From assembly GCF_002854065.1 (NCBI RefSeq), contig NZ_CP024147.1: a stretch of 64,000 nucleotides of DNA; one strand, 5' to 3'. The position numbers are program-made. Source of the DNA: Escherichia coli (GTDB taxonomy: Bacteria; Pseudomonadota; Gammaproteobacteria; Enterobacterales; Enterobacteriaceae). Shown one piece after another: positions 55,501 through 58,500 of the stretch (its first letter is position 1; every line of letters starts with the position of its first letter).

Positions 55501-58500
55501 TCCACCACACGGAGTGAATAACCGTTTTCAGCGATGTTATTAATCAGTTCAGTGAGATTAACACCATCGACGTCAACGACAATGCGCCCCATGTTCAGTG
55601 CCTGCACGTTAATGCTGTCGGCTTCCAGCGTCAGGGCCAGTTTCATTGTTTCGCCCCCGGATGTTTACCCAGGGTAATGTTATTTACCGTTCTGTAATTG
55701 TCGCGGGTCATCAGGCCTGTCGCCCGGCGGGCCCGGAGGATATCGATGCTGTTTATTAACTGAGAACGGGTACAGGCGCTGAATCCCGGCTGGTCGGTAC
55801 GCACCAGTGCGTATTTTTCCACGAGAAAGTTCACCGCATCACACAGTGAAATGCCTGCCTCAATATGCTGCTCAATCACACGTTCATCGGCAAACGGTGT
55901 GTCATTCAGTGTGAGGCCGTAGTGCTGGTCCAGCAGTCGGGACAGCAGTATCTGCCAGATTTCAACAGGAGACGGGCGAGAACTGGCCGCCTGCCCGGGT
56001 AATACAGGTAATGTTTTCATACTGAAGATTTTCCTGATATGCAGATATAAAAATGGGAAAGTGGCGTGGTGAAAACACCAGGCCGTAGCAGAAGGCTATT
56101 CTGGAGAGTTAATTTTTCATTTTGGGCATCGGATAAACAGCCAGATAAACGTAACCACAACTGCTGAGGGTATCGGCTTTGCAGGTCAGCCCTCTGGCAT
56201 ACAGCGTGACGGTATGCTGATGGCGGGGATTCAGTTCACCGCTGGTGAGCATGAGCTCCAGTTGTTTCATCAGCAGCGGAAAGGCCTGGTCCAGGTGGTA
56301 CGCATCTGCATTGCTGAACCGCCCTCTGATACCGGCGCGGTCTGCAAGGTAATGCAACCGGTTACCCTCCTGCACCAGACGTGCCCCGAAACAGGGCGTC
56401 ACTGTGCAGGGCAGCCCCCACCAGGGGCGGTCGTGATTGTCGTCGGGGAGTGTGTCTGACACGATAAAGTCCTCACAGAAAATCGGTTAAGAATGCTCCG
56501 GTGGTGGCGATAATTCTGCTCATCTGAATGCCCTTCCAGACTCAGTTCAGTGTGACGCTCATCAGCCGGACATACGGACCAAAACTGTCCTTACGGTGTT
56601 CTGCAAACACGGCCAGCACACCGGGAATATCCTGTACTTCACGACCGGTATACGCTTCAGCACCGCCGTGCCAGCGATACTTACCGGTACAGAACGGAAA
56701 AAGACGGGATGCAGGATGCTGACGGTGAATACGCATGGCTTCACCACGGGTGATGATTTTCATGAGAATAGTCCTCCTGAATGTGAAAGTAAGAAACAGC
56801 TGAGAAAGAGAAACTGAAGTGATATGAAGGTGATTGTGACGGTGACGGGTTAAAGCAGACCGTGTTCCGCAAAGGAGAATACCTGGCTGCCACCGATTAT
56901 CAGATGGTCCGGTACCCGGATGTCCACCAGGCCCAGTGCCTGTACCAGACGTTCGGTGATAAGCCGGTCTGCCTTACTGGGTGTGACTTCACCGGACGGG
57001 TGATTGTGCGCCAGCACCACGGCAGCGGCATTGTGGTACAGGGCACGTTTAATCACTTCCCGGGGATGGACTTCCGTGCGGTTGATGGTGCCGGTGAAGA
57101 GGGTTTCACCGGCAATCAGCTGATTCTGGTTGTTCAGATACAGCACCCGGAACTCTTCCCGCTCCAGTCCCGCCATGTTCAGAATCAGCCACTCCCGTGC
57201 CGCATGCGTGGAGGTGAAGGCCACGCCGGGTTCATGAAGATGGCGGTCCAGGGTTTTCAGGGCCCGCTGAATGAGGCTGCGCTCGCCGGGCGTCATCTCT
57301 CCGGGCAGAAAGGAAAGCTGTTGCATTGTTCCGGCCCCTTTCAGTCAATGATGCGCATAATGGCGTTGCATTCCGGATGCTGCAGGGCGTAATCCCGCAG
57401 CCGGTAATAATGGACCGTCATGGCATAACACTCCGTACGACAGGCATGATGGCTGTACGTCATCAGACAGGCAGCAATGCCGGCGGCTTCCGGGCTCATT
57501 TCAGCGCGGTTACCGTTCATGGCACTGAACAGTACCCATGTTTCGTCATCATCGTCATCCGGTTCGGGTGCCATAAATGCCCCGCCGTTGTTCAGGGTGT
57601 ACAGATTCCAGATACCACCGCAGTAGTCTTCGCACAGACGGTCCATCCAGCCGAAGACACGGGGCTCCAGGGTCACCCACTGTGGAATGAGGCCAAAATG
57701 CTGCGGCCAGAAGCTGATGCGCTGTTCATCAGGGACGAGGGTGGCAACCAGTTGAGGCGGGTTATTCTCTGATACAGCGGTTACGGAAACAGAAGGTGTG
57801 GTGGAATTATGCAAAACGGTTGTCATGAGATTATTCCTTATAAAAAGTAAATGAATGGAAGAAGTCGCGGGGCAGGGACGGACATGAGTCAGAACTGCGC
57901 TTTCAGGGAAAAGGCATCAGCGCATACTCTTCAGCAGTGTTTCTGCCATCACCCACAATGCGCGATTGAGCTTAATGTCCGTGTCGATGCTGTGAATGGC
58001 ACGGGTATGGATACGTTTTCCTCTGGCACTGCGACCGGAAATCCCGCCTTTCAGCATATTCTCCTGGATGGTCTGATAAGCACTCCACAGGTCCTTACCG
58101 TAATCCTCCCGGCGTCGCGGTGTCAGAATGTCAGCAGTGGTGACGGGCTGATGTTCGTCACCATAACGGTAAGTCAGTGCCGCCTGTGCCAGCGCCTGGC
58201 GTGCCGGTGGCGGCAGGACCAGCGACTGCATGGCATCACGTTTCTCCTCAATCCGGTCAAAAACCCCCACCACCTCGTAAGCCCCTTCGATAACTTTCTC
58301 CACTACGTCTCCCCGGTGTGGAACACGCACTTCCCCCAGAGACTGACCACAGACGCATCCGTTCTGGCAGACGAACCTGAAGTAACCCGGCAGCATCTGG
58401 TAGCTGGAGGTACCGTCATGGGAGTTCAGCAGGATGATTTCAGGGACATGTTGTCCGTTTATCTCCCCGTCACGGCGCAGACGCAGCATGTGTTTGGTGT

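What the first reader, a model, noticed from the sequence alone, without database searches (positions are those of the whole stretch)
55643..56462. CbtA/CbeA-type type IV toxin-antitoxin pair with full CP4-type accessory set
Antitoxin (117 aa) and toxin (125 aa) sit in the canonical order together with DUF987, RadC-like, KlcA-like and DUF932 genes. All are intact and same-strand. The ORF track lists them only as anonymous ORFs.
Basis: partly seen in the sequence, partly recalled or inferred. Interest (0 to 1): 0.4.

Follow-up and report, generated by a model that had tools for sequence, protein, structure and literature searches.

The report
This is an intact but ordinary copy of the well-studied E. 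coli CbtA/CbeA (YeeV/YeeU) toxin-antitoxin gene pair, sitting in its usual gene cassette inside a genomic island next to the ileX tRNA gene. Public databases already annotate it this way.

Summary
On the minus strand, 55643-56020 encodes a 125-aa CbtA-family toxin (Pfam PF06755, E=3e-58). It matches E. coli K-12 CbtA/YeeV at 122 of 124 residues, but YkfI at only 57% and YpjF at 63%. Upstream, 56109-56462 encodes a 117-aa CbeA/YeeU antitoxin (PF06154, E=4e-53; solved structure 2H28, E=2e-75). It uses the same GTG start and the same 88-nt spacer as K-12.

The toxin keeps R15 and F65, the residues needed to bind MreB and FtsZ. It differs from K-12 only in a C-terminal tail that the active paralogues lack. 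The antitoxin has a recurrent, in-frame 5-residue N-terminal deletion and two rare substitutions (D51N, T112M) of unknown effect.

The DUF987, RadC/JAB, ArdB/KlcA antirestriction and DUF932 genes are all intact and on the same strand. The cassette belongs to an island that begins 13 nt after tRNA ileX. It continues through Ag43, an IsrC-like RNA, a GTPase and hsdM, and then runs off the window. The DUF5983 (yeeW-like) gene next to the toxin has an in-frame stop.

Both exact proteins are already in NCBI under these names, and 4,948 of 5,426 complete E. coli genomes hold similar DNA. Already known; low interest.

The parts
53824..53899 (+). tRNA ileX (anticodon CAT; RefSeq calls the identical gene tRNA-Ile). 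This is the chromosomal site the island abuts.
   Evidence: ARAGORN; Rfam tRNA, 73 bits; annotated as tRNA-Ile in strains 571, 100416 and ET846.
53900..53912 (.). Last 13 nt (GATATAGCAAAGG) shared with an island-free strain. The island junction lies at 53912/53913.
   Evidence: Three-way alignment of the window, island-free strain 100416 and island-bearing strain 571; sequence read.
53999..54844 (-). DUF4942 protein gene (281 aa), the last gene of the island before the tRNA.
   Evidence: Pfam PF13708, E=3.6e-69; same position in strains 571 and ET846.
54875..54901 (-). Terminator-like hairpin (10 bp stem, 7 G-C pairs, T-rich tail) after the DUF957 gene. Probable 3' end of the cassette transcript.
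   Evidence: Consensus scan. This is a pattern match only.
54941..55138 (-). Small DUF957-like gene (65 aa).
   Evidence: Aligns with the gene RefSeq annotates as 'DUF957 domain-containing protein' in strain 571. No hit in the Pfam copy used here.
55158..55646 (-). DUF5983 (yeeW-like) gene, interrupted by an in-frame TGA at codon 57 (55476-55478). The N-terminal 56 codons form ORF 55476-55646, and the C-terminal domain remains in frame downstream. Its ATG overlaps the cbtA stop codon (ATGA).
   Evidence: Pfam DUF5983_N, E=1.6e-30; DUF5983 C-terminal domain, E=9.5e-23; alignment with the intact 162-aa gene of strain 571; codon check.
55643..56020 (-). cbtA (yeeV-type) toxin gene, 125 aa, intact.
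   Evidence: Pfam PF06755, E=3.2e-58, covering profile positions 1-112 of 112; 122/124 identical to K-12 CbtA; R15 and F65 present; the exact protein is in NCBI as CbtA on 288 contigs.
56021..56108 (-). 88-nt cbeA-cbtA spacer. It differs from the K-12 spacer at one position.
   Evidence: Alignment with K-12.
56109..56462 (-). cbeA (yeeU-type) antitoxin gene, 117 aa, GTG start, intact. It carries a 15-nt in-frame N-terminal deletion relative to K-12.
   Evidence: Pfam PF06154, E=4.3e-53; PDB 2H28 YeeU, E=1.7e-75; alignments; the exact protein is WP_199560497.1 CbeA.
56542..56763 (-). DUF987 (yeeT-type) gene, 73 aa.
   Evidence: Pfam PF06174, E=1.6e-38; 95% identical to K-12 YeeT.
56850..57326 (-). 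RadC-like JAB-domain gene (yeeS-type), 158 aa.
   Evidence: Pfam PF04002, E=1.2e-44; NCBIfam TIGR00608 above its cut-off; 98% identical to K-12 YeeS.
57341..57826 (-). ArdB/KlcA-family antirestriction gene, 161 aa.
   Evidence: Pfam PF03230, E=5.6e-37; PDB 2WJ9, E=9e-98, and KlcA 2KMG, E=5e-20.
57917..58735 (-). DUF932 gene (yafZ/yfjQ-type), 272 aa.
   Evidence: Pfam PF06067, E=4.2e-51; 75-76% identical to K-12 YafZ and YfjQ.
59063..61909 (-). Ag43/Cah-family autotransporter adhesin gene. It is 948 aa counted from the MKRHLNTSYRLVW start; the mechanical ORF begins 25 codons further upstream.
   Evidence: Pfam ESPR, AIDA, AC_1 and Autotransporter domains; 74% identical to K-12 Flu; 948 aa in strain 571.
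61928..62164 (-). IS102 RNA match between the GTPase and Ag43 genes. K-12 annotates the small RNA IsrC in the same position upstream of flu.
   Evidence: Rfam RF00124, 71.5 bits against a gathering score of 46; K-12 annotation. That IS102 and IsrC are the same RNA is from my own knowledge, not tested here.
62280..63152 (-). YeeP/YkfA-type GTPase gene, 290 aa.
   Evidence: Pfam MMR_HSR1, E=1.1e-14; 49% identical to K-12 YkfA; annotated as 'GTPase family protein' in strain 571.
63416..64000 (+). Start of a type I restriction-modification M subunit gene (hsdM). It runs off the window, so the island continues beyond it.
   Evidence: The translation matches the HsdM N-terminus of strain 571; annotation.

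Best explanation

By homology to the characterised K-12 proteins, the toxin binds FtsZ (through a surface that includes F65) and MreB (through a surface that includes R15). When it is in excess, cell division and cell elongation both stop and cells become lemon-shaped. The antitoxin, encoded 88 nt upstream, counteracts this. The published model is 'type IV': CbeA binds FtsZ and MreB polymers and enhances their bundling, rather than binding the toxin.

The pair is one element of a conserved same-strand cassette: DUF932, ArdB/KlcA antirestriction, RadC/JAB, DUF987, cbeA, cbtA, DUF5983, DUF957. The cassette sits at the tRNA-proximal end of a genomic island beside ileX. The module most plausibly helps keep this mobile island in the genome, or modulates growth under stress.

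Shown here: gene integrity, family membership, paralogue identity, conservation of the two mapped contact residues, and the genomic context. Inferred: toxicity, neutralisation, the type IV mechanism, co-transcription and the biological role.
For: - Both proteins give full-length Pfam matches.
- The toxin is 98.4% identical to K-12 CbtA. All differences lie at residues 120, 122 and an added residue 125. This is beyond the 112-position Pfam domain, in a tail that the toxic paralogues YkfI (113 aa) and YpjF (109 aa) lack.
- R15 and F65 are present. Their roles were mapped by Heller et al. 2017 (PMC5624674).
- The antitoxin matches the solved YeeU structure 2H28 over residues 3-117.
- The antitoxin's 5-residue deletion lies in an N-terminal stretch absent from YafW and YfjZ, which still neutralise the toxins (Wen et al. 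2017, PMC5371832). Five other deposited alleles carry the same deletion.
- Codon differences in cbtA are mostly synonymous: 8 synonymous to 3 non-synonymous against K-12. For cbeA against strain 571 the count is 14 to 3.
- The GTG start, Shine-Dalgarno sequence and 88-nt spacer (one mismatch) are as in K-12.
- Gene order matches K-12 CP4-44, CP4-6 and CP4-57, and the same island at ileX in strains 571 and ET846.
- Gaps within the cassette run from -4 to 90 nt, and terminator-like hairpins flank it.
Against: - No expression or phenotype data exist for this allele.
- The simple scan found no sigma-70-like promoter on the coding strand anywhere in 53900-59100.
- The antitoxin carries D51N and T112M at positions that are at least 90% conserved among 15 aligned family members. 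Their effect is unknown.
- cbeA differs from K-12 at 5 synonymous and 6 non-synonymous codons, so purifying selection is not evident in that comparison.
- The adjacent DUF5983 gene is broken, which shows some decay in the cassette.
- According to Wen et al. 2017, the K-12 modules are expressed at a low level and their activation signal is unknown.
Confidence: 0.85

Rival explanations
1. The reading frames are intact, but the module is a silent passenger. It lies in a decaying island, is not transcribed at meaningful levels, and has no current effect on the host.
For: - No promoter-like site was found on the coding strand in the cassette.
- The neighbouring DUF5983 gene carries an in-frame stop.
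- E. coli genomes with a match carry a median of 3 matching places and up to 14, so any one copy may be redundant.
- Wen et al. 2017 could delete the K-12 antitoxin genes and suggested low toxin expression as a possible reason.
Against: - All six listed genes, plus DUF4942, Ag43 and the GTPase, are uninterrupted.
- cbtA shows an excess of synonymous changes.
- The promoter scan is a crude consensus match that misses many real promoters.
- Triple toxin and antitoxin deletions in K-12 do give oxidative-stress and biofilm phenotypes (Wen et al. 2017 abstract).
Confidence: 0.12
2. The toxin is functional, but this antitoxin allele (5-residue deletion, D51N, T112M) is weakened. The toxin would then be held in check mainly by paralogous antitoxins encoded elsewhere in the genome.
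For: - D51 and T112 are at least 90% conserved in the 15-sequence alignment, and only this allele has N and M there.
- The exact allele was seen on a single contig in the 15-billion-protein collection.
- The K-12 antitoxins cross-neutralise all three toxins (Wen et al. 2017).
- Most E. coli genomes carry several such modules.
Against: - D to N is a conservative change.
- T112 lies just outside the Pfam-aligned core, which covers residues 13-111.
- The deletion recurs in other deposited alleles.
- No other CbtA or CbeA copy exists in this 64-kb window, and the rest of the genome is not available to check for paralogues.
Confidence: 0.05
3. The module works, but not by the type IV route. The antitoxin might lower toxin levels or bind the toxin directly, rather than acting on FtsZ and MreB polymers.
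For: - Nothing in the sequence distinguishes between these mechanisms.
- The unusually long, almost invariant 88-nt spacer (one mismatch to K-12) could hold a regulatory element.
- From memory, not checked here: Brown and Shaw (2003) reported reduced toxin levels when the antitoxin was present.
Against: The published biochemistry, as summarised by Heller et al. 2017 and Wen et al. 2017, reports that CbeA binds FtsZ and MreB and promotes their bundling, and that toxin and antitoxin do not interact directly. This protein is 92% identical to that CbeA.
Confidence: 0.1

Closest known systems
CbtA/CbeA (YeeV/YeeU) of cryptic prophage CP4-44, E. coli K-12
   Same: - The toxin is identical at 122 of 124 residues, including R15 and F65.
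- The antitoxin is 92% identical and uses the same GTG start.
- The 88-nt spacer has one mismatch.
- The upstream YeeT-type (95% identical) and YeeS-type (98% identical) genes, an Ag43 gene, an IsrC-like RNA and a GTPase gene are arranged as in CP4-44.
   Different: - The toxin tail differs (Y120H, E122G, one added Q).
- The antitoxin lacks 5 N-terminal residues and has 6 substitutions.
- This cassette keeps intact DUF932, ArdB/KlcA and GTPase genes. K-12 CP4-44 instead has yeeR and a yeeP pseudogene.
- The island lies at tRNA ileX, not at the CP4-44 site.
- The Ag43 protein is 948 aa and 74% identical to the 1039-aa Flu.
The same island at ileX in other E. coli strains (for example strain 571, NZ_CP183117, and ET846, NZ_CP100895)
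   Same: Same insertion point after ileX. Same gene order from DUF4942 through hsdM. 96-97% DNA identity over 10.9 kb. RefSeq annotates cbtA and cbeA there.
   Different: - Strain 571 has an intact 162-aa DUF5983 gene.
- Strain 571 has an extra 214-aa hypothetical gene between cbeA and DUF987.
- Strain 571 has the 122-aa form of the antitoxin.
YkfI/YafW (CP4-6) and YpjF/YfjZ (CP4-57), E. coli K-12
   Same: Same two Pfam families. Same antitoxin-then-toxin order. Same upstream antirestriction, RadC and DUF987 genes. CP4-6 likewise has its toxin-antitoxin end next to its tRNA gene, thrW.
   Different: Only 57-63% identical for the toxins and 58-61% for the antitoxins. These toxins (113 and 109 aa) and antitoxins (105 aa) are shorter, have C15 instead of R15, and are separated by roughly 20 nt rather than 88 nt.

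Membership tests
CbtA toxin family (Pfam PF06755; K-12 CbtA/YeeV) | Full-length match to the family profile above the curated cut-off | tested here: met
   195 bits against a cut-off of 25, covering profile positions 1-112 of 112.
CbtA toxin family (Pfam PF06755; K-12 CbtA/YeeV) | Closest to CbtA/YeeV rather than to YkfI or YpjF | tested here: met
   98.4% identical to CbtA, 57.5% to YkfI and 63.3% to YpjF.
CbtA toxin family (Pfam PF06755; K-12 CbtA/YeeV) | Residues mapped as needed for target binding are kept: F65 for FtsZ and R15 for MreB | tested here: met
   Both residues are present. Their roles come from PMC5624674.
CbtA toxin family (Pfam PF06755; K-12 CbtA/YeeV) | Overexpression stops growth and produces lemon-shaped cells | not testable with these tools
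   Needs an expression experiment.
CbeA/YeeU antitoxin family (Pfam PF06154) | Profile match above the cut-off, and similarity to the solved YeeU and YfjZ structures | tested here: met
   178.5 bits against a cut-off of 27. PDB 2H28 at E=1.7e-75, 2INW at 2.1e-72, 2JN7 and 2EA9 at about 1e-40.
CbeA/YeeU antitoxin family (Pfam PF06154) | Encoded immediately upstream of the toxin gene on the same strand | tested here: met
   The gene at 56109-56462 lies 88 nt upstream of the toxin gene at 55643-56020, both on the minus strand.
CbeA/YeeU antitoxin family (Pfam PF06154) | Family-conserved residues are kept | tested here: inconclusive
   All 51 invariant columns of the 15-sequence alignment are kept. 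However, two columns that are at least 90% conserved are changed (D51N, T112M).
Type IV toxin-antitoxin systems | The antitoxin protects the toxin's targets (bundling of FtsZ and MreB) and does not bind the toxin | not testable with these tools
   This feature is known only from biochemistry on K-12 CbeA, as summarised in PMC5624674 and PMC5371832. It is inferred here from 92% identity.
CP4-type (cryptic P4-like prophage) island cassette | Co-linear accessory genes: GTPase, DUF932, ArdB/KlcA antirestriction, RadC/JAB, DUF987, antitoxin, toxin | tested here: met
   All are present and intact on the minus strand. The order matches K-12 CP4-6, CP4-57 and CP4-44.
CP4-type (cryptic P4-like prophage) island cassette | Located next to a tRNA gene | tested here: met
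   The island begins 13 nt after ileX, shown by alignment with an island-free strain.
CP4-type (cryptic P4-like prophage) island cassette | P4-family integrase, and a direct repeat of the tRNA 3' end at the far boundary | not tested
   The island runs off the window at 64000. The 19 kb beyond the match in strain ET846 and the 15 kb beyond it in strain 571 showed no integrase. The far end was not reached.

The most novel reading that the evidence does not exclude
The most novel reading the evidence leaves open is that this rare antitoxin allele is functionally altered. It combines the 5-residue deletion with D51N and T112M and was seen on only one contig. It sits beside a DUF5983 gene split by a stop codon exactly at the boundary between its two domains. 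A published survey (PMC10790755) scored DUF5983 as a recurrent downstream partner of CbtA. If DUF5983 were a third component of the module, this copy would be a natural variant with changed control of the toxin.
Probability: 0.04. Interest if true: 0.3.

Novelty: already known. Interest (0 to 1): 0.06.

Why it matters
It matters little beyond correct annotation. The result confirms that this strain carries an intact YeeV/YeeU-type module in an island at ileX, and it assigns the paralogue. The family, its targets (FtsZ and MreB), its gene cassette and its variable copy number in E. coli are already documented (PMC5624674, PMC5371832, PMC10790755). The only mildly useful points are that this cassette is more complete than the K-12 CP4-44 reference, and that it carries a rare antitoxin allele.

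Tried and rejected
- **Another species as host.** I suspected this because the best DNA match to the toxin-antitoxin region in 5,426 complete E. coli genomes was only 93-96%. Rejected: dnaG-rpoD is 100% identical to two E. coli strains, and the whole island end is 97% identical to strain 571.\n- **GTG start as a truncated antitoxin.** Rejected: K-12 and strain 571 use the same GTG.\n- **The 5-residue deletion as damage.** Rejected as unlikely: five other deposited alleles share it, and it lies in a stretch that YafW and YfjZ lack.\n- **A second CbtA or CbeA copy in the window.** None found by tblastn.\n- **Known anti-phage defence systems.** PADLOC gave no match for any cassette protein. Only the GTPase gave weak LeoA/LeoBC matches.\n- **A solved structure of the toxin.** None found: the best PDB match has E=0.12 over 32 residues.\n- **NCBIfam.** It has no model for the toxin or the antitoxin, and matched only the RadC-like protein and the GTPase.\n- **Promoter scan.** No site found on the coding strand, which is uninformative.\n- **Far end of the island and its integrase.** Looked for in related strains but not reached.
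Full report
**Observation.** The toxin is 55643-56020 (125 aa, ATG start). 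The antitoxin is 56109-56462 (117 aa, GTG start). Pfam matches the first to CbtA_toxin PF06755 (E=3.2e-58, all 112 profile positions). It matches the second to CbeA_antitoxin PF06154 (E=4.3e-53).

- DUF987: 56542-56763, E=1.6e-38
- RadC-like JAB: 56850-57326, E=1.2e-44
- Antirestrict PF03230: 57341-57826, E=5.6e-37
- DUF932: 57917-58735, E=4.2e-51

The antirestriction protein matches the solved structures of ArdB (2WJ9, E=9e-98) and KlcA (2KMG, E=5e-20), so 'KlcA-like' is a fair label.

**Host and context.** The window is E. coli chromosome. The dnaG-rpoD stretch is 100% identical to two E. coli strains and at least 95% identical in 5,425 of 5,426 complete genomes.

The only tRNA gene in the window is at 53824-53899, with anticodon CAT. 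RefSeq annotates the identical gene as tRNA-Ile, that is ileX. I aligned the window with strain 100416, which has nfeF directly after ileX, and with strain 571, which has the island. The foreign DNA begins 13 nt after the tRNA, at 53912/53913.

Reading away from the tRNA, the genes on the minus strand are:
- DUF4942
- a DUF957-like gene
- DUF5983
- cbtA
- cbeA
- DUF987
- RadC/JAB
- ArdB/KlcA antirestriction
- DUF932
- an Ag43/Cah autotransporter
- an RNA matching Rfam IS102 (71.5 bits), in the position where K-12 annotates IsrC upstream of flu
- a YeeP/YkfA-type GTPase

A plus-strand hsdM gene then starts at 63416 and runs off the window. The same island at ileX occurs in other E. coli strains at 96-97% identity, and RefSeq annotates cbtA and cbeA there.

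**Which paralogue.** I fetched the three K-12 cassettes and compared proteins.

| Window protein | Closest K-12 protein | Other K-12 paralogues |
|---|---|---|
| Toxin | CbtA/YeeV, 122/124 (98.4%) | YkfI 57.5%, YpjF 63.3% |
| Antitoxin | CbeA/YeeU, 92.3% | YafW 58%, YfjZ 61% |
| DUF987 | YeeT, 95% | YkfH 64%, YpjJ 62% |
| RadC-like | YeeS, 98% | YkfG 82%, YfjY 77% |

This is therefore the CP4-44 (YeeS/T/U/V) type. It is in fact more complete than the K-12 reference. K-12 has yeeR in place of the DUF932 and antirestriction genes, and its yeeP is a pseudogene.

**Integrity of the toxin.** It differs from K-12 CbtA only at Y120H, E122G and one extra C-terminal Q. These changes lie beyond the Pfam domain, in a tail that the toxic paralogues YkfI (113 aa) and YpjF (109 aa) do not have.

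Heller et al. 2017 (PMC5624674) showed three things about K-12 CbtA:
- F65S abolishes the FtsZ interaction.
- R15C weakens the MreB interaction.
- Only the double mutant loses toxicity.

Both residues are present here. Against K-12, cbtA has 8 synonymous and 3 non-synonymous codon differences. The exact protein is deposited in NCBI as 'type IV toxin-antitoxin system cytoskeleton-binding toxin CbtA' and was seen on 288 contigs. I found no disabling change.

**Integrity of the antitoxin.**
- *Start codon.* The GTG start is not a defect, because K-12 and strain 571 use the same GTG with the same upstream sequence.
- *Length.* The 117-aa length comes from a 15-nt in-frame deletion between two near-identical short repeats, ACACTCCCCG and ACACTTCCCG in K-12. 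The deleted residues lie in an N-terminal stretch that YafW and YfjZ lack altogether. Five other deposited alleles carry the same deletion.
- *Structure match.* The protein aligns with the solved YeeU structure 2H28 over residues 3-117.
- *Rare substitutions.* D51N and T112M fall in columns that are at least 90% conserved among 15 aligned sequences. This exact allele (WP_199560497.1, named CbeA) was seen on only one contig. I cannot say whether these changes matter. D to N is conservative, and T112 lies just outside the Pfam-aligned core.
- *Spacer.* The 88-nt cbeA-cbtA spacer differs from K-12 at one base.

**Likely mechanism.** By homology, excess toxin binds FtsZ and MreB, blocks division and elongation, and gives lemon-shaped cells (PMC5624674). 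The antitoxin is reported to bind FtsZ and MreB polymers and enhance their bundling rather than binding the toxin. This is the basis for the 'type IV' label (summaries). Wen et al. 2017 (PMC5371832) found that the three K-12 antitoxins neutralise all three toxins, that the operon is not autoregulated, and that the activating signal is unknown.

All of this is inference for the present allele. The sequence shows only that the parts are intact.

Gene spacing within DUF932 to DUF957 runs from -4 to 90 nt. Terminator-like hairpins lie upstream of DUF932 (58804-58775) and downstream of the DUF957-like gene (54901-54875). This fits one transcription unit. However, the simple scan found no promoter-like site on the coding strand, so the expression signals remain unidentified.

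**Decay next door.** The DUF5983 (yeeW-like) gene has a start codon that overlaps the cbtA stop codon (ATGA). It carries an in-frame TGA at codon 57, at 55476-55478. The stop falls at the boundary between the N-terminal domain (PF25638, E=1.6e-30) and the C-terminal domain (PF19419, E=9.5e-23, still in frame downstream). Strain 571 has the intact 162-aa gene, and K-12 yeeW is a 64-aa remnant.

**Novelty.** There is none of substance.
- Similar DNA is found in 4,948 of 5,426 complete E. coli genomes, with a median of 3 and up to 14 places per genome.
- RefSeq names the genes routinely.
- A published survey documents the variable copy number of CbtA and its CbeA and DUF5983 neighbours (PMC10790755).
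- PADLOC finds no known defence system among the cassette proteins.
- No solved structure of a CbtA toxin exists in the PDB copy searched. That is a gap for the family as a whole, not a feature of this locus.

**Verdict.** The paralogue is YeeV/YeeU. The feature is already known, and interest is low.

Noticed in passing
window 55158-55646 (-), stop codon at 55476-55478: The DUF5983 (yeeW-like) gene overlapping the cbtA stop codon has an in-frame TGA at codon 57, exactly between its two Pfam domains. The C-terminal domain is still in frame and undamaged. Strain 571 has the intact 162-aa gene, and K-12 yeeW is a 64-aa remnant.
   Followed up: partly
window 53900-53913; L002 (strain 100416) about 18568-18620: The island junction lies 13 nt past the 3' end of tRNA ileX. 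The toxin-antitoxin end of the island, not an integrase, abuts the tRNA, as in K-12 CP4-6 at thrW. The far boundary and any integrase lie outside the window.
   Followed up: partly
window 61928-62164 (-): Rfam IS102 RNA match (71.5 bits) between the GTPase and Ag43 genes. K-12 annotates the small RNA IsrC in the same position upstream of flu.
   Followed up: no
L001 (strain 571) 18407-19051 (-), compared with window 56463-56541: Strain 571 has a 214-aa hypothetical gene with no Pfam hit between cbeA and DUF987. It is absent from the window, where the gap is only 79 nt.
   Followed up: no
window 63416-64000 (+): A type I restriction-modification M subunit gene begins here and runs off the window. 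In related strains hsdS and hsdR follow, so the island carries both an antirestriction gene and a type I restriction system.
   Followed up: partly
window 32976-33124 and 33351-33500 (-): Two tandem Sib RNA genes (Rfam RF00113, 143.5 and 141 bits). These are antitoxin RNAs of a separate toxin-antitoxin system in the chromosomal backbone.
   Followed up: no
window 29362-29510 (-) and 41420-41490 (-): An FMN riboswitch (121 bits) and a naRNA4/CssrE nucleoid-associated RNA match (79 bits) in the backbone.
   Followed up: no
window 59063-61984 (-): The mechanical ORF for Ag43 starts 25 codons upstream of the likely true start (MKRHLNTSYRLVW, the ESPR signal). The protein is 948 aa and 74% identical to the 1039-aa K-12 Flu, so it is a shorter Ag43/Cah allele.
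   Followed up: partly
window 58775-58804 and 59016-59042 (-): Two strong terminator-like hairpins (13 and 12 bp stems) lie between the Ag43 stop codon and the DUF932 start codon. This leaves only about 40 nt for a promoter directly upstream of DUF932.
   Followed up: no
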